Assembly (NCBI RefSeq): GCF_028641065.1
Contig: NC_073392.1
Coordinates: 24,800,001-24,864,000, forward strand
DNA length: 64,000 nt
Direction: 5' to 3'
Source of the DNA: Leucoraja erinacea
Lineage: Eukaryota
Part shown: positions 1,322 to 64,000 of the stretch, one piece after another
Numbering within the stretch: position 1 is the first letter of the stretch
How the letters are laid out: every line of letters begins with the position of its first letter
The notes under the pieces: generated by a model
Databases searched by the model: none
What the model was told of the DNA's origin: nothing
Seen by the model: the letters and a program-made list of their open reading frames with translations, nothing else
Position numbers and translations under genes: made by a program

Positions 1322-1623
1322 CTATGAGCTGGATCCCTGAGTCTGGGCGAGGGGTGCATCTTGCGGTGGGAGGTCACTCAGCGGCTCCTGATCCGCCGGG
1401 TCTTGCCCCTCGCCCTCTTCATCCTGAGGGTAGAGGTCGGGGTATCGCTGCATGCACTCCTGCATGGTGCGGAACTGGTCCAGACATTCCGAGCCCTTCA
1501 CCTCACCCATGCTGTGGTGGAAGCAGGAGAAGGCGGACTTGAACTGCTCCCCGCACGGCCCACTCGCCATCCCCCCTAGGCACGGGCAGTTCCAGTTGAT
1601 GTCACCGTTCGGCAAGATCAGAC
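1322..1623 (-). CDS. CHCHD4: CHCHD4 exon 3 (CPC + CX9C domain, stop TAG)
   Basis: tttgcag|GT CTG ATC TTG CCG; stop at 1322-1324. Confidence 0.96.
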
Positions 1624-4600
1624 CTGCAAACACAGCGAGGAAGCACGTCAGCAGCTTGAGCGGTAGCACAGCCTCAAGGGGTGAATGGCTTCTTCCTGCC
1701 ATCACATGGGGAGGGCTGGGGAAAAACAGAGGCTTGGGGGGGGGCGAAGGACAAGACTAATAATGGTTTATTATGTTGAGTTCTGGTCACCCCAGAAGAG
1801 GAAGATGTGGAGAGGGTGCAGAGGTTTACATAGAACGTAGTACAATACAGCACAGGAACAGGCTTTTCGGTCCTCAATGTCTGTGACAAACATGATGCCA
1901 AGTTAAATTAATCTTGGAAACCACAGCACTAGGGGAAAACCCACGCGGTCACAAGGAGAACATACAAACTCTGTACAGACAGCATCCAAGAAAAGGATCA
2001 AACCCAGGTCTCTGGCGATGTGAGGCAGCAGCTCCACCTGCTGTGCCATGCTAGAGTTGAGACATAGAGGTGTACAGCACGGAAACAGGCCCTTCTGCCC
2101 ACCATGTCCATGCTGTTCAAGTTGCCATACGGGGCTCGTCCCATTTGCCTACATTTGGCCCATATCCCTCTAAACCCTTCCTATCCATATATCTGTCCAA
2201 ATGTCATTAACATATCATCATTGTAACTGTTTCTGTAGCTTCCTCTGGCAGCTCGTTCCAGATACAGACTACTCTTCGATTGAAAAACGTGTCTGAGGTC
2301 CCTCTTAAATCTCTCCCATCTCACCTCTCACCTTAAGCCTGTGCACTCTAGTTTTAGAATCCTCTACCCTGGGAAAAAGACTATGAGCGTGACTACACAT
2401 TAGGGGGAATTTACAGAGGGCCAATTACCTACAAATTGATCTGGATGATACTGCAGCTACACTAATAGAATCAACAAGGAGAGTGAACCCGGAGACATCA
2501 TGAAATCAGTGCGGAAATAGCGAGAAAGTTACCTCATGGGTAAATATCTCCAGCTTCTGGTTAATGTAACTGTTCAATGTTTCATTCTCGATGTGACGAG
2601 ACATAGTATAACTCTATGACATGTGCCCAAATGTGATGGAGTCATATAGCATGGAAATCGGCCACTTGGCCCACCGCGTCCATACTGACCAGCGGACATC
2701 CATCCATAATAATCTCATCTTCCAGCTCTTAGTTGTGGTTCTCCATGCCTTGGCGATGAAGTGCTGGCCTACACACATCTAAAACACTGTCAGCCACTCT
2801 GCTCCCACCTCACTCTCTGGCCAGGTGTTCCAGGTACTTACCACTCGCTGGGTGAAGGTGGTCAGATCTAGCACCTTGTTTGGGTCTTGCTGATGTTTCA
2901 TGTTCCCAGGGTTTGTAACTGGGACATGCAGGCAAAGTTTTCCACTTGATGCCCTTTGACTTCAGGTCTTCTCAAGGCTTTAGTGCCATCATTGGTGCCT
3001 ATCTTGCTCAAAGGAGGTGGCGTGAATGCTGAAAGTTCCAGGATATTGCTCCAAGAGTTCCTCGGGTGAGCAACACAGATCTAACCACCTTTAGCTCATA
3101 CGTTCATGTTATAGGGGCAGAATGAGGTCATTCGGCCCATTCAATCGTGGTTGATCTATCTTTCCCTCTCAACCCCATTTTCCTGCCTTCTCCCCATAAT
3201 CTTTGACACCCTTACTAGACAGGAACACATCAATCTCTGCTTTAAAAATACCCAATGACCTGGTCTCCACAGCAATGAATTCCACAGATTCACCACCCTC
3301 TGATTAAAGAAATTCCTCCTCATCCCTCCTTTCTAAAGGTACGTTCTTTTATTCTGAGGCTGTGCCCTTTGGTCCTAGACTCTTCCACTGGCAGAAACAT
3401 TCTCTCCACATCTACTCTATCCAGGCCTTTCATTTTTTGGTAAATTTAAATGAGCTTCTCTCTTATTCTTCTAAACTCCAGCGAGTACAGGACCAGTGTC
3501 GGCAAATGCACTTCAAACATGCTAGCGGTTGCAATGATCACCCATAGACCATGTGAGGAGGTCGAACAGAAGAGACCTGTTCCATTCACTATTCTGTCGA
3601 GATTAACACTGATGACAATCTACAACTGAACTGCATCATTCATACAACACAGGACCAGCACATCCTGTTGCTATCGCCACCCAAATCTTCCCCGCCTCCC
3701 CAACCTTCAATGGCATCAACAACAACCACCTGCCTTTAGTCATGGAGCCGTACAGCACGGAAACAGGCCCTTCGGCCCACCTGGTCCATGCTGATCAAGT
3801 TGGTGCACTGGTCTAGTCCCATTTGCCTGCATTTGGCCCATAGCCCTTAAACTCTTCCTATCCTATTTTTTGCACAAAGTCCGCGAGCAGTGCTACTTTC
3901 ATTTCACATCTCGTATGTGTATGTGACGAATAAACTTGACTTGACTATCCATGTATCTGTCTGAATGTCTGTTAAAATTTGTTATGGTGTCTGTAAAGCT
4001 TCCTCGGGCAGCTGGTTTCAGATACGGACTAACCTCTGAGTGTAATGGTTGCTCCCGAGGTCTTTCTTATATATCTCCCCTTCCACCATAAGTCTGGCCC
4101 TCAAGTTTTAGAATCCTCTACCATGGGGGAAAAGACTGTGAGTGTTTACTTTATCCGTGCCCCTCATGATCTTGTACACCTCAATGACGTCACCCCTCAG
4201 CCTCCTACGCTTAATAGAAAGAGTTTATGACACCCTTAAATGAGAACAAACATCCCAAAATGTGACAGAGGCATGCAAGGACATTGGTCAAGGTGACCAA
4301 ATAACACAGTCAAAGTTGAGGTTTTTTAGGCACATCCTCAAAGTAAGGCGGCGAAGAAAGCTTAGGAATTCCAGAGATTAAGGTATATAAAATGATGAGA
4401 GGCATAGATAGGGTGGACAGTCACTACCTTTTGCCCCAGGATGGAAACATCAAATACTAGAGGGCATAGCTTTCAGGTGAGGGTGGCAATGTTTAAAGGA
4501 AATGTGCGAGGTAAGATTTATTTTCACACATATGGTGGTGGGGGCCTGGAACCCAATGGCCAGAGTTGGTGGTGGAGGCAGATACGATAGTGGTGATAGT

Positions 4601-8679: not shown

Positions 8680-9180
8680 TTTCTAAAAGTACATCCTTTT
8701 ATTCTGAGGCTATGACCTCTGGTCCTAGATTCTCCCACTAACGGAAACATCCTCTCCACATTCACTCTATGGAGGCCTCCCGCGATTCTGTAAGTTTCAA
8801 TTAGATCCTTCTAAACTCCAGCGAGTACAGGGCTAGTGCCAACAAACACTCGGCACAGGTTAACCCAATCATTCCTGGAATAATTCTTGTAAACCTCCTC
8901 TGGACCCTCTCTAACGCCGATACATCCTTCCTCAGATATGGGTCCCAAAACTGCTCACAATACTCCAAGTGCGGTCTGACCAGTGCCTTATAATGCCTCA
9001 TTCAGCATTACATCCCTATTTTTATATTCTGGTCCTCTTTAAATAAATGCTAGCATTGTATATGCCTTCCTTAATACTGATTTCCCTTGCAAATTATCTT
9101 GTTGGGAATCTGTACCAGCACTCACAAGCAAAGATCTTATAGTGGAGCTATAAGATCTTTGCTCACAAGTCCCTTTGCAG
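8680..9180 (-). mobile_element. CR1 LINE ORF2 3' fragment
   Basis: [41 protein letters not shown], typical CR1 RT C-terminus. Confidence 0.9.
9129..9161. mobile_element. 33-bp TIR-TIR remnant of P-like transposon with 8-bp TSD CTCACAAG
   Basis: ctcacaag|CAAAGATCTTATAG tggag CTATAAGATCTTTG|ctcacaag. Confidence 0.85.
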
Positions 9181-9719: not shown

Positions 9720-9898
9720 ATGGACTTCCGGTTACTCCCCGTGTCCCGGGACTACAGCCCCCAGGATGCAGTGCGCTGCGGCTGGCCTTACGCATGCGTG
9801 GTAGTGCATCCAGTCCGAGGAGGCCGGTAGTTGGGGTCGGCTGGCGGGAGCAAAGATCCTCTATAATCTTTGGGCGGGAGGTCTGGGGCTGGGTGGCG
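9720..9898 (+). promoter_or_regulatory. TMEM43 promoter/5'UTR: ETS/GABP site, ZNF143 (SBS) site, NRF1-like site
   Basis: ACTTCCGGT 9724-9732; ACTACAGCCCCCAGGATGCA 9751-9770; ACGCATGCGT 9791-9800. Confidence 0.75.
9851..9872. mobile_element. 22-bp TIR-TIR remnant of P-like transposon with 8-bp TSD GGCGGGAG
   Basis: ggcgggag|CAAAGATCCT CTATAATCTTTG|ggcgggag. Confidence 0.8.
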
Positions 9899-30000: not shown

Positions 30001-33000
30001 GCAGCACGTACAGGGGGTGGTCTTTGTAGCCGGCGATGGAGGTGGGCAGAGCCTGGTCCATCAGCTTAGCGCGAAGCTGGTGGAGCAGAAGTGAGAGGTC
30101 AGCACCGGGTTTCACACCACCGACCAGCAACTGCATTGCCTTCTCTCCAGCATTAACCACGAAGCTGAATACTCTCCCACACAGTTTAGTTTACTATTGT
30201 CATGTGTACCGAGGTACAGTGAAAGGTTTTTTGTTGCGTGCTATATTGTCAGTGAAAAGACAATACAAGATTAAAATCAGGCCCTTCGGCCCAACATGCC
30301 CCGTCTACATAAGTCCCACCTGCACATATTTATCACTCTAAACCTTTCCTATCCATGCATCTGTCCAGATGTTTTTTTAAACGCTGTGATAGTACCTGCC
30401 TCAGGTGGGACGCGTGTCGATGGGGCATCTTGGTCGTCGTGGGCAAGTTGGGAGGAAGGACCTGTTCAGAGTCCACACTGTATTACTACGTTTGTCTGAA
30501 GATGGGCCATGCGAGGAGAGGGTCGAAAGTTTGCGGGATGGAGGTGACGGCTGCCACAGGCCTTTATGGTCAGCTGCAGCTGGGACTGTGAAATGCTGCT
30601 AAACCTGGCAACTAAATCTTGCATATGGACTCAGTGGGCTGTTTCTTTGCATTGTGTGTTAACCGGGGATTTACATGTCCGGCAATAAGCTCACTGATCT
30701 ACGTGCAAAATAAAGAATCTCACTGTATTATGGTCCACGTGATAATGAAGGAACCATTGGCCCATTGGCCTGTCGAATGCCCACATCCGTCCCAATCCAT
30801 CAACATTATTGAATCATTGACCTGCTGAATGCCATCGACCCATTCATTGATTCCTTCCTTATTGGTGAACAAACGCATGACGAAAATAGATCGGGCAGAT
30901 GCACAAAGTCTTATTCTCAAAGTAGGGGAATCGAGAACCAGCAGACATAGGTTTAAAGAGAGGGGGGGAAAGATTTTAAGAGGAATCTGAGGGATAACTT
31001 TTTTTACACAAAGGTAACAAGCTGCTGAAGGAGGTAGTTGAGGCAGGTACTATCGCAACGTTTAAGAAACATTTAGACAGGTACATGGATTTAGTGGGAT
31101 ATGTGATACGCAGGCTGGTGGGGCTAGTGTAGATGGGGCGTCGGTCAGCATGGGCAAGTTGGGCCTGTTTCAATGACTATTGACCCATTGAATACCATTA
31201 ATGGATCAATGGATCTCCGAAGATCATTGACCCATTGACCCTCTGAATGCCCACCTACCTCGCGATCCTCCAGCATGTCCCGCTGAGTGAAGGTGCTCCT
31301 GTAGGGCGACAGAGTCTGATCCCACCAGACGGCGTCCACACGGATCTTCCTTGTGGCCGTCATCCACGCAGTGTCGTACCTCTGGGTCACGTCCCGGACG
31401 CAGCCCTGCCCGTCGAAGCCCACGATGTAGCGGAGCGGCTTGGTGGCGTGCCGGACGCAGAGCTCCAGCCGGTCCACGGCGCTGTGTACACAGTCCACCG
31501 CCACCCACCTCTTCTCCACCTCCAGGAAGACCTCCACCCACTGATCCGAAGGAGTGGCGCGCGCTGGCACCTCAACCGCTGGCCCCACGACTCCGTCGCT
31601 GGGCTTCTGCCGGCCCGAAGATCTCCCCTTGGCCTTGTTCTTCACCGGGTTCCTCTCGAAGTCTTCATCCTCACTCATCTCCGAGCTCCTTCCCGACACA
31701 CCGCGCTCTTCCCGGCCTCGTGACACGCTTCCCTCGCCCCCTGCCGAGTAACTGCTGGAATTCTCACTCTCCGAGTCGCTTTCATCGGTCGCCTCCCTGT
31801 ACGAGATCTTCGAGGCAACCCGTCTCTGCCGCTGGTTCTTCGCCCTCGCATTCGCCGGGTTTCTTCGCCGCTCATCTTCCTCGAATCCCGACTCGCCCGA
31901 GGCTTCTGTACACTCGACCTTCCGACCTCTCCCTCCGTGAACCGCGGCCGAGGCTCTGGCCCTTCTAGACCCCTCCCGTCTCTCTGTCTTCTCCCCCGCT
32001 TCCCTCTCGCCCTCACGCTTGCCGCCTGCTTTTCCGGCAGCTGCTCCAGGTTTAGCCCGGGGCGTCGAGGTGGGAGTGTCCTTGACTTCAGATCTTCGTC
32101 TTCTTGGGGTCTTCTGCAGGAGGAGAAGGAGAAGGAGACTGTTATCTCAAGGGTCACGGTGTTAAGACTGAGCTCAACAGTGGCACAGTGGCGCAGCGGG
32201 TAGAGCCGCCGCCTCACCGCTCCAGGGTCCCGGGTTCAATCCTGAGCTCTGGTGCTGTCTGTATGGAGTTTGCACCTTTCTCCCTGTGACCGCGTGGGTT
32301 TTTTGCTCCGGTTTCCTGCTACATCCTAAAGACCTGCGGGGTTTGTAGGTTAATTGGCCCTCTGTAAATTGCCCCTAGGGTGTAATGGGAGGGGGGGTGA
32401 ATGGGAGGGGAGGGGGGGTGAATTGGAAGGGGGGTGATTCAGGGGGGGGGGGGGTGAATAGTGAATAGGAGGGTACCTTTGGTTGCACCACGGACTTTGG
32501 TTTTGCACTATTATGATTACCTAGTATTACTGATTATTAATTTAATGTATTATTATAATATATTTATCTGTGTGTGATTGTGTTTACGGGTCTGTTACGT
32601 TGCAGTAAGTTACAATCCCATTGTTCCTTTGCCATGACAGATTCAGGAACAGTTTCTTCCTAGCAGTTATCAGGCAAATAAACTGTCCTCTCACCAACCA
32701 GAGAGCAGTCCTGACCTCCCATCTACCTCATCGGACACCCTCACACTATCTTTAATCAGCTTTTACTGGACTTTACCTTGCACTTGACATGACTTTCTTT
32801 ATCCTGTATCTGTACACTGTGGACAGCTCGATTATAATTCTGTATAGTCTTTCTGCTGACTGGATAGAATACAACAAAAGGCTTTTCACTGACAATAAAC
32901 TAAACCAAACTAAATTAATTAAATTAATCCTAGATTAGTTTAAAACTAAACTAAACACACTCTGGCCTGCTGGAACAGTGATGTATTGGGCCACAGACCA

Positions 33001-62420: not shown

Positions 62421-62438
62421 GGCATTTGCAGTCTTGTG

Positions 62439-63978
62439 CAAAGATCCAAGATAGGCTACTCCTGCTAAATGCAATGGACTGACGTGTAGTACGCTATGGA
62501 GGGGATCATGGGCATTTTTCCACGCCCATTTTAGCAACCTGAGCCTACCTAACCCGACCCGACTCGCACTGTAATCAATGTTGCGGGGCAACAGTTTGTG
62601 TGGGTCAGATTCATAAATCTGTCAGTTCAAACTTCTTGTCAAGAATAAAATTTGATTCTGGTAATTGTCTTTTTTAATGTTTTTTAAATCATTTCTTTTT
62701 AAATGGCTCACAAGCAGTGTTTGAGTTGATTTTGTAGTAACCGGAACCGACCCGACTCGCAGGGTGATTGACAGGGGGGGACTTTTTGTGCGTGATTATA
62801 GGGTTAGATTCATAATTCTGTTAGTTCATAATTCTGTTGATTCTTGTTAAAGAATAAAATGTTTGTAAACACACATACATGAAAATTATATAAATGTATA
62901 TAACACACACAATTATATTTCTTCTAATCCAATAATGAACTTTATTTCAGACTAGACAAGGGACATTAAATAAGAAACATTGTAAATAAGAAACATTGTA
63001 AACCTCCCTGCAACTTCACACACACTAGGCCTTATCCCCCCCGGCACTCTCTCGCCTGCCCCCTTACTACAATGTCCCCCCTCCTATGCCCCTCTCCTCG
63101 CCGCCCCGGGCCCCGCACTCTCTCTCCTCGCTGCCCCGGACCCCGCACTCCTTTCTCCCCGCTCTCCTCTCCTCGCTGCCCCGGACCCCGCACTCCCTCT
63201 CCCCGCTGCCCCGGACCCCACACTCCCTCTCCCCGCTGCCCCGGACCCCGCCCTCCCTCTCCCCGCTCCCCCGGACCCCGCACTCTCTCTCCCCGCTGCC
63301 CCGGGCCCCGCACTCCTTCTACCCGCTTCCTCGCTGCCCCGCACCACGCACTCTCTCTCCCCGCTGCCCCGGGCCCCGCCCTCCTTCTCCCCGCTGCCCC
63401 GCACTCTCTCTCCCCGCTGCCCCGGACCCCGCCCTCCTTCTCCCCGCTGTCCCCCTCTCTCTCCCCCCTCCCCCGGCTCCGCACTCCCTCTCCCCGCTGC
63501 CCCGGACCCCACACTCCCTCTCCCCGCTGCCCCGCACACCCGCACTCTCTCTCCCCGCTGCCCCGCTCTCTCTCTCCCCGCTGCCCCCGGCCCCGCCCCC
63601 TCTCTCCCCGCAGCCCCGCGCCCCGCGCTCCCTCTCCCCGCTGCCCCGCACCCCGCACTCTCTCTCCCCGCTGCCCCGCACCCCGCACTCTCTCTCTCTC
63701 CCCGCTGCCCTGGACCCCGCACTCTCTCTCTCCCCGCTGCCCCGGACCCCGCACTCTCTCTCCCCGCTGCCCCGGGCCCCGCACTCCTTCTACCCGCTGC
63801 GGATCCAATCTTTGGCCGGAAGCAAGAAGGCGGGAGCAAGAAAGCGGAGCAAGATAGCGGACCAAGATGGCGGAGTCAGGTTGCTAAAATGTGTCCTATA
63901 ATCACCCATGAATCCGCCCATGAGCGTACCTCACGTTTGCGTGAGAGTAACCCATCTTGCTCCGCTATAGGATCTTTG
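62439..63978. mobile_element. Non-autonomous DNA transposon, P-element-like (1540 bp, 8-bp TSD GTCTTGTG)
   Basis: gtcttgtg|CAAAGATCC ... GGATCTTTG|gtcttgtg; perfect 16-bp subterminal inverted repeats at 62527-62542 and 63876-63891. Confidence 0.88.
63085..63800. repeat. GC-rich ~30-bp minisatellite (CCCCGCACTCCCTCTCCCCGCTGCCCCGGA) inside the P-like element
   Basis: More than 20 degenerate tandem copies; source of spurious repetitive ORFs. Confidence 0.93.
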
Positions 63979-64000
63979 GTCTTGTGTGTCTCCGTTGGAC

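What the first reader, a model, noticed from the sequence alone, without database searches (positions are those of the whole stretch)
62431..63986. P-element-like non-autonomous transposon in a vertebrate: parent family of the footprints
Seen: 8-bp TSD GTCTTGTG at 62431-62438 and 63979-63986. The right TIR reads CAAAGATCCTATAGCGGAGCAAGATGGGTTACTC; the left is similar but lacks 11 nt. A perfect 16-bp internal inverted repeat CATTTTAGCAACCTGA lies 87-88 bp from each end, with an extra AGCGGAGCAAGAT copy and a YY1-like CAAGATGGCGG near the right end. No transposase ORF. Established: CA-starting ~30-bp TIRs, 8-bp TSDs and subterminal inverted repeats are P-superfamily hallmarks; vertebrate examples are few (zebrafish Pdre, domesticated THAP9). 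Inference: a P-type system of elements plus excision scars, three traces in 64 kb, has been prolific in this lineage. The damaged left TIR may explain why this copy stayed.
Basis: partly seen in the sequence, partly recalled or inferred. Interest (0 to 1): 0.8.

Follow-up and report, generated by a model that had tools for sequence, protein, structure and literature searches.

The report
Skate P transposons leave excision scars
This is a young, gene-less copy of a P-type jumping gene in a skate, whose relatives in the same genome carry a P transposase gene, and whose thousands of short leftover scars suggest that the enzyme likely cuts 20 or 18 bases inside the ends instead of the fruit fly's 17.

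Summary
In detail: a 1,540-bp element between two GTCTTGTG repeats, left end lacking 11 nt, no transposase.

P-superfamily membership is now tested, not guessed. Elements with these ends in the same genome (little skate by an identical named protein) carry THAP plus P transposase domains. One copy of a sister family (A) has an uninterrupted 882-aa three-exon frame with the catalytic D/D/E, and one of its splice joints appears in 3 of 3 probable RNA runs laid.

The window copy lies in reverse orientation. It belongs to a young non-autonomous family (B) with a variable minisatellite core.

The main new point is the scars. An end-to-end pattern gives 4,248 matches (control 7); perhaps 60-75% are independent. 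Scar stubs stop at nt 20 in family B (22 of 1,352 stubs that reach nt 19 reach nt 22) and at nt 18 in family A. Both stops fall just before the same AAGAT motif. Inferred: a long staggered cut set by that motif, not the 17 nt of Drosophila.

Not shown: current activity, the cut itself, an intact family B transposase, or absence from Dfam/Repbase.

The parts
62431..62438 (+). Left copy of the 8-bp target site duplication GTCTTGTG
62439..62461 (+). Damaged terminal inverted repeat (the element's 3' end relative to the transposase of its relatives). TIR nt 10-20 are missing; the junction at 62447/62448 coincides with the inferred nick position
   Evidence: nick position inferred
62447..63019 (-). 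3' subterminal region, 75-97% identical in pieces to the DNA downstream of the transposase frame in family B elements (L058, L059, L072, L111)
62527..62542 (+). 16-bp subterminal inverted repeat, left arm (offset 98-99 in intact copies)
63091..63800 (+). C-rich minisatellite core (30-bp unit, about 22 copies at 63157-63800); likely accounts for most of the length range of copies, 902-1,974 bp
63819..63871 (+). Four 13-bp tandem copies resembling the inner TIR motif; candidate transposase-binding array (inferred)
63831..63978 (-). 5' end region, 93% identical over 148 bp to the 5' end of the THAP/transposase-bearing element L072, where the THAP ATG follows about 215 bp from the end
63876..63891 (-). 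16-bp subterminal inverted repeat, right arm (offset 87)
63945..63978 (-). Intact 34-bp terminal inverted repeat (5' end); predicted nick on the non-transferred strand between TIR nt 20 and 21 (63959/63958)
   Evidence: nick inferred
63979..63986 (+). Right copy of the target site duplication
9121..9169 (.). Family B scar: 33 bp of two TIR stubs (20 + 15 nt, 2-nt overlap) between CTCACAAG duplications
9843..9880 (.). Second scar: 22 bp with a family A-type stub, between GGCGGGAG duplications

Best explanation
The element is a gene-less member of a young P-superfamily transposon family whose ends match those of P-transposase-bearing elements in the same genome, and the thousands of TSD-flanked 20-40 bp two-stub sequences are likely its excision scars, left by a staggered cut predicted to be 20 nt long (18 nt in the sister family). 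Shown: ends, TSDs, transposase domains, splice joint, scar structure and stub limits. Inferred from Drosophila P biochemistry, in five steps. (1) A THAP transposase supplied in trans binds the subterminal repeats. (2) It cuts the transferred strand at the terminus and nicks the other strand just before AAGAT. (3) The element leaves and inserts with an 8-bp duplication at GTnnnnAC-like sites. (4) The two 3' overhangs left on the chromosome are trimmed and end-joined, mostly through 2-3 nt microhomology (28-, 33- and 38-mers), sometimes flush (40-mer) or with short inserts that look templated. (5) AAGAT after the nick repeats TIR nt 3-7, so the overhang's ATCTT could fold back and pair with the new 5' end, as the transferred strand does in the Drosophila structure. 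The looped-out part would then be free to vary, giving 18 or 20 nt. The window copy's 11-nt deletion ends at that same position and may be a half-finished cut that was repaired badly.
For: Transposase link: PF21787 gives 40 matches in the genome. PF21787/21788/21789 hit 4 of 4 transposase frames scanned, PF12017 1 of 4; THAP hits L055. The only PDB hit is Drosophila P transposase 6P5A, E=1.3e-42, with D/D/E aligned. TSD-matched elements holding transposase sequence: L111 (family B; THAP exon plus start of the core) and C956 and C1676 (family A). The C1305 copy reads 882 aa over three exons. The splice joint is in 3 of 3 probable RNA runs (3 studies) and 0 of 1 DNA run. Youth: 40 of 40 scored copies are 99-100% identical over about 514 bp. 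Scars: 4,248 vs control 7; 38 of 47 sampled have a TSD with at most 1 mismatch. Family B stubs: 1,352 reach nt 19, 22 reach nt 22. In the first 100 rows, counted by eye, 91 reach nt 20, 7 nt 21 and 4 nt 22. Among 58 stubs of 29 independent scars the mode is 20 (15) and none lies at 21-24. Family A: 24 of 34 stubs end at nt 18, 2 at nt 19, none longer; 0 of the first 100 rows continue GCAA. Flush 20+20 joins with their own TSDs: L084, L094, L223. TSD profile from 87 distinct sites: G 0.52, T 0.75 ... A 0.75, C 0.52.
Against: No cut was measured; the limit is read from repair products. Both stubs end in GC, a self-complementary microhomology that could attract joins. Scar counts are inflated: 14 of 47 sampled fall in 4 clusters carried by other repeats or by the element's own ends, and only 29 of 47 were unique with a good TSD. 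The 18/20 hybrid scars are one event carried by a repeat in 8 of 8 checked, so they do not show one enzyme cutting both lengths. One family B stub scored 25 by my lenient rule (L131; 21 when read strictly). About 9 of the 22 long-stub cases run on into the element. No uninterrupted family B transposase was found among the copies fetched: the best has a stop inside, and the others examined are cut short or deleted. None of the 882-aa-type copies was found with both ends: C1305 has only a 5' TIR, and C956 has both ends but a frameshift in exon 2. The RNA label of the runs is a guess by the tool. The fold-back pairing is inferred from sequence alone.
Confidence: 0.74

Rival explanations
1. P family and excision scars as above, but the true overhang is longer than 20/18 nt or is one fixed length, and repair simply prefers to join at the terminal GC microhomology, so the apparent limit is a repair artefact.
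For: A 2-nt overlap is the commonest junction (10 of 29 independent scars). Both families have GC right before AAGAT. A second peak at nt 15 also sits on a GC.
Against: Many stubs pass the nt-15 GC but almost none pass the nt-20 GC. An overhang of 22-25 nt would offer a better 2-5 nt match (AAGAT with ATCTT), yet that product appears in only 2 of the 22 long cases, both inside complex scars. Flush 20+20 joins need no microhomology (L084, L094, L223). A fixed 20-nt ruler would leave GCAA stubs in family A; there are 0 of 100 rows. A 21/19-nt cut with the last A trimmed is less well excluded.
Confidence: 0.15
2. The short units are not scars but ultra-short mobile elements, or products of transposase-independent hairpin deletion between the TIRs.
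For: Identical 28-, 33-, 34- and 38-mers recur with different TSDs. Every scar keeps both termini and the TSD, as an insertion would.
Against: They lack the inner TIR and all subterminal repeats. Junctions are very varied and include inserts. Hairpin deletion gives no reason to stop at nt 20 or 18 when the TIRs match to about nt 34. Retention of both TSD copies with TIR stubs is what a long staggered cut predicts.
Confidence: 0.08
3. The element belongs to another superfamily with 8-bp TSDs (hAT), and the P transposase link is coincidental.
For: 8-bp TSDs and a GTnnnnAC target are shared with hobo and Hermes (table passage in PMC2577343).
Against: The same TIRs and subterminal DNA bound THAP plus P transposase sequence with matching TSDs. 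I did not search for hAT transposases with these ends.
Confidence: 0.02

Closest known systems
Drosophila melanogaster P element (transposase PDB 6P5A)
   Same: THAP, HTH, split RNase H with GTP-binding insertion. D/D/E and most listed GTP-contact residues align (against residues named in PMC7776569). TIRs of about 30 bp, subterminal inverted repeats, 8-bp TSD, GT...AC target edges, internally deleted copies, a long stagger. The 3' end spacing is 12 bp longer than the 5' (99 vs 87 here; 21 vs 9 bp spacer in PMC7776569), though the features measured are not the same.
   Different: Inferred stagger of 20 and 18 nt rather than 17. Three exons with a GC-AG second intron, against four exons (PMC3698922). 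The non-autonomous family has a minisatellite core. Thousands of scars are retained in the genome.
Zebrafish Pdre2 / zfTHAP9
   Same: Vertebrate P-type element with TIRs, subterminal repeats, 8-bp TSD and deleted copies (10.1101/2024.03.22.586318, passages).
   Different: Pdre2 has 13-bp TIRs of unrelated sequence and about 50 copies, and its enzyme excises but was not seen to integrate. Here TIRs are about 34 bp and copies are 99-100% identical. No protein named THAP9 is among the 120 listed of 342 hits, most of which are unnamed; the named species are gastropods at 35-40%. THAP9 and Pdre were not in my tree.
Human THAP9 (domesticated)
   Same: P-type transposase domains.
   Different: THAP9 has no TIRs or deleted copies (PMC7776569); these transposases sit inside mobile ends and are multi-copy.
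BuT5 MITE and its P partner in repleta-group Drosophila
   Same: A roughly 1-kb non-coding element sharing only its ends with a P element (PMC3698922, passages).
   Different: BuT5 has 3-bp TIRs and an insect host; the word 'footprint' does not occur in that paper's main text.

Membership tests
P superfamily | Autonomous relatives encode a P-type RNase H transposase with GTP-binding insertion | tested here: met
   Pfam PF21787/21788/21789 in 4 of 4 transposase frames; 6P5A E=1.3e-42
P superfamily | N-terminal THAP (C2CH) domain | tested here: met
   PF05485 on L055, E=5e-9; CxxxxC and CxxH motifs in the C1305 frame
P superfamily | Catalytic D/D/E triad | tested here: met
   Aligned to 6P5A; motifs at residues 314, 403 and 630 of the 882-aa frame
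P superfamily | Transposase lies between the same ends as the window element | tested here: met
   L111 with matching TSD holds the THAP exon and start of the core; L072 ends 93% and 97% identical to the window's. L072's own flanking 8-mers do not match.
P superfamily | 8-bp TSD with palindromic GT...AC preference | tested here: met
   shared with hAT, so not discriminating
P superfamily | Terminal inverted repeats of about 30 bp plus subterminal inverted repeats | tested here: met
Drosophila-type P chemistry | 17-nt staggered cleavage | tested here: not met
   Indirect only: stubs reach nt 20 (family B) and nt 18 (family A), which a 17-nt overhang cannot leave. It works like P, with a longer inferred stagger.
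Drosophila-type P chemistry | GTP-dependent cleavage and integration | not testable with these tools
   Residues conserved; no assay
THAP9 / Pdre lineage | Groups with vertebrate THAP9 in a tree, or is syntenic with it | not tested
   No THAP9 sequence was on hand; none named among 120 listed hits; the tree lacks it
MITE (non-autonomous miniature element) | No coding capacity, high copy number, homogeneous size | tested here: inconclusive
   Non-coding and numerous, but 902-1,974 bp in 12 copies
hAT | hAT transposase inside the ends | not tested
   No hAT search was run; a P transposase was found there instead

The most novel reading that the evidence does not exclude
A skate carries a still-active, spliced and expressed P transposon lineage separate from THAP9/Pdre, and its thousands of natural scars show that P transposases place the inner nick at a sequence motif that lets the overhang fold back, so the famous 17-nt stagger is a family-specific length (18 and 20 nt here), not a fixed ruler.
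Probability: 0.45. Interest if true: 0.82.

Novelty: new variant of a known kind. Interest (0 to 1): 0.67.

Why it matters
The review PMC7776569 states that the order and mechanism of P strand cleavage are not known and treats the 17-nt stagger as the hallmark. Two sister families with 18- and 20-nt stubs ending at one motif give a direct swap experiment: move the motif and see whether the nick moves. The only TIR-bounded vertebrate P enzyme I found tested, from zebrafish, excised but did not integrate. An uninterrupted, spliced skate transposase with 99-100% identical passengers is a candidate for a fully mobile vertebrate P system. The scars are also a large natural sample of germ-line end-joining in a cartilaginous fish.

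Tried and rejected
Complete family B element with an uninterrupted transposase: not found among the loci fetched; these were not all of the 53 candidates.

Hybrid 18/20 scars as proof that one enzyme cuts both lengths: rejected; 8 of 8 checked share one flank.

4,248 as a count of events: rejected; it includes repeat-borne copies and a 17-bp palindrome inside the element's own 5' region.

16-nt and 19-nt end variants (C12, C1177, C1021): seen, their scars not tested.

Ends shortened before AAGAT: 8 matches, all on one strand, so probably undercounted. The pattern forced the breakpoint, so it has no control and is not used as evidence.

Empty-site test at the window locus with 4 runs: inconclusive; the flanks are repetitive, and depth is not copy number.

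No run on record as RNA was listed; the runs used are guessed RNA.

The tree is the quick version; the careful search did not finish.

Literature: three searches returned 0 papers (P element, cartilaginous fish, DNA transposon, skate; P element, excision, footprints, 17 bp, end joining; P superfamily, transposons, shark, Repbase). Listings showed no title on skate or shark P elements. 'P element' occurs 0 times in the main text of PMC10115646 and of PMC4350176; their figures and supplements were not seen and may list a DNA/P family. Four primary Drosophila papers were not held. Dfam and Repbase could not be searched. Earlier scan findings: none returned.

Full report
Observation. The sequence shows GTCTTGTG at 62431-62438 and 63979-63986 around a 1,540-bp element. 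The right end is a 34-bp TIR; the left end has TIR nt 1-9 and then resumes at nt 21. A perfect 16-bp inverted repeat lies at 62527-62542 and 63876-63891, and four 13-bp copies resembling the inner TIR motif lie at 63819-63871. The core is a C-rich minisatellite with a 30-bp unit, and no frame inside resembles a transposase. Two TSD-flanked scars lie at 9129-9161 and 9851-9872.

Host. A window exon is 100% identical to an NCBI protein named MIA40-like of Leucoraja erinacea, the little skate; the next hits are sharks at 76-78%. The genome is 2.19 Gb.

Family. The exact 27-nt end pattern has 190 matches against 0 for the control. The left 522 bp gave 2,115 first-look candidates, not a copy number; the 40 scored are 99-100% identical to the window copy. 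All 11 other copies fetched have both ends and 8-bp TSDs (9 exact, 2 with one mismatch), and all have an intact left TIR. The 12 copies span 902-1,974 bp, and their left 580 bp are 95.9-99.8% identical pairwise, mean 98.5%. These 12 are the best hits, so they overstate the family's youth.

Transposase. PF21787 gave 40 listed matches from 53 candidates. They include two groups, about 70-85% identical in protein. Family A ends have 18 nt before AAGAT; family B ends, like the window's, have 20 nt. Four of four transposase frames scanned hit the RNase H N, GTP-binding and RNase H C models; the fifth frame scanned was a LINE reverse transcriptase. THAP hits L055. The single PDB match is Drosophila P transposase 6P5A at E=1.3e-42, with the three acidic residues aligned (residue names from PMC7776569 section 8, read whole).

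Link to the window element. Its right 148 bp are 93% identical to the 5' end of L072, and its left end is 97% identical over 102 bp to L072's 3' end; L072 carries THAP exons and the C-terminal half of the transposase. So the window copy lies in reverse orientation. L072's flanking 8-mers do not match, but L111 (2,677 bp, THAP exon and start of the core) has matching TSDs, as do the family A elements on C956 and C1676.

Intactness and expression. The C1305 family A copy has its ATG 100 bp from the TIR, a GT-AG intron, a GC-AG intron and an 882-aa frame. Exons 2 and 3 are also open in C1087, C154 and C1296. These unplaced copies are 98-100% alike and share flanks, so they are not independent insertions. 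No 3' TIR was found for C1305 within the DNA fetched. The second intron is skipped in contigs of 3 of 3 runs guessed to be RNA (three studies) and in 0 of 1 DNA run. No uninterrupted family B transposase was found; the best has one stop inside. Whether family B was moved by its own enzyme or by family A's is open.

Relatives. Of 342 protein hits, 120 were listed. The five closest (57-80%) are unnamed. The named species are gastropods at 35-40%, and none is named THAP9. In a quick tree of 32 rows the skate sequences group with five unnamed proteins (support 99), away from the named gastropod ones. THAP9 and Pdre were not included, so a separate origin is suggested, not shown.

Scars. The pattern of two 8-nt termini facing each other within 30 nt gives 4,248 matches against 7 for the control. 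Of the first 50 listed I examined 47; the other three lie together inside one element end (L217) and were left out. 38 of 47 have a TSD with at most one mismatch. 14 of 47 fall in 4 clusters sharing a flank, and 29 of 47 are unique with a good TSD. Independent events are therefore more likely about 2,600-3,000, an extrapolation from one chromosome arm. With 14-nt stubs required there are 813 matches of 28-40 nt and 110 of 41-70 nt; in the 50 listed the longer ones are mostly short stubs plus inserts that repeat stub sequence.

Stub limit. In family B, 1,352 scar ends reach nt 19 but 22 reach nt 22, 1.6%; both counts include repeat-borne copies. In the first 100 rows, counted by eye, 91 reach nt 20, 7 nt 21 and 4 nt 22. 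About 9 of the 22 run on into the element and look like ordinary deletions or aborted gap repair. Among 58 stubs of 29 independent scars, 15 end at nt 20, 9 at nt 15, none at 21-24, and one scores 25 only under my one-mismatch rule. In family A (443 ends), 24 of 34 stubs from 17 independent scars end at nt 18, 2 at nt 19 and none later; the hybrid cluster was left out. None of the first 100 rows continues GCAA. In both families the stop is the base before AAGAT.

Mechanism. Drosophila P transposase cuts at the 3' terminus and 17 bp inside on the other strand; donor breaks are repaired by recombination or end joining (PMC7776569 section 7, read whole). The donor then holds TIR-derived 3' overhangs (my deduction), and joining them keeps both TSD copies and two stubs no longer than the stagger, which is the structure seen here. 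I infer staggers of 20 and 18 nt. The GC microhomology at the stub ends is the main worry. But stubs often pass the GC at nt 15 and almost never the one at nt 20; a longer overhang would offer a better AAGAT/ATCTT match that is seen in 2 of 22 long cases; and flush 20+20 joins exist with their own TSDs (L084, L094, L223). In the Drosophila structure the transferred strand loops out and doubles back to pair with the 5' part of the other strand, with nt -14 to -18 disordered. Here AAGAT after the nick repeats TIR nt 3-7, so the same fold-back is possible with a loop of free length. This step is inference from sequence. The window's deletion (nt 10-20, or 9-19 given a shared C) abuts the predicted nick, which fits a repaired single-end cut; this is one case.

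Target. 87 distinct TSDs, symmetrised, give G 0.52 and T 0.75 at positions 1-2 and A 0.75 and C 0.52 at 7-8. This resembles the core of the Drosophila motif, but also hobo and Hermes (PMC2577343, two passages).

Comparison and novelty. P elements are known in vertebrates from zebrafish Pdre2 (13-bp TIRs, excision only; bioRxiv 10.1101/2024.03.22.586318, passages) and domesticated THAP9 (PMC7776569, passages). P-driven non-coding elements are known from BuT5 (PMC3698922, passages). Ten literature searches and word searches in PMC10115646, PMC4350176 and PMC10824691 showed no description of skate P elements or of other stagger lengths. The library lacks most subscription papers, supplements were not read, and Dfam and Repbase were not available, so an automated DNA/P entry may exist. 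That Drosophila excision leaves TIR stubs is recalled; the primary papers were not held.

Verdict. The element alone is a new member of a known kind. The family-specific, motif-anchored scar limit and the uninterrupted spliced transposase make the system a new variant with a clear experiment. Interest 0.67.

Noticed in passing
L044:4374-6572 (G000:C3): A 733-aa open P transposase frame, about 67% identical to family A, with no THAP exon or 5' end found in 30 kb and one end-like motif 4.3 kb downstream. Fifteen of 15 listed unnamed 677-aa proteins match it at 98.4-99.7%. Possibly a stationary or domesticated copy.
   Followed up: partly
L217; intron 1 of family A copies (L043, L045, L061, L076): Scars are stacked inside the elements' own ends and introns (three within about 100 bp in L217; a 17-bp one fixed in the 5' region of many family B copies), as if the family repeatedly inserts into itself.
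   Followed up: partly
L012-L022: The subterminal repeat lies 12 bp further from the 3' end than from the 5' end (99 vs 87), the same difference as the 21 vs 9 bp spacers of Drosophila P.
   Followed up: no
L103, L104, L107: Three 3'-type ends share the same 5-nt shorter TIR (15 nt before AAGAT) with different flanking 8-mers: either repeated slippage or a mobile short variant.
   Followed up: no
L068, L069, L073, L074: Further end variants with 19 nt and 16 nt before AAGAT next to transposase sequence; their scars were not examined.
   Followed up: no
L112:3982-4397: In run X6 the right-flank contig starts inside the TSD and differs by 4 letters and 4 gaps, whereas runs X5 and X10 bridge the element end; a weak hint that this insertion is absent in that organism.
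   Followed up: no
window 1325-1624 (-) and 31148-32146 (-): Exons of a MIA40/CHCHD4-like gene and of an XPC/Rad4-like gene (PF03835); the two scars at 9.1 and 9.9 kb lie between them.
   Followed up: partly
L045-L050: Near-identical family A transposase copies on six unplaced contigs share downstream flanks and look like a segmental array.
   Followed up: no
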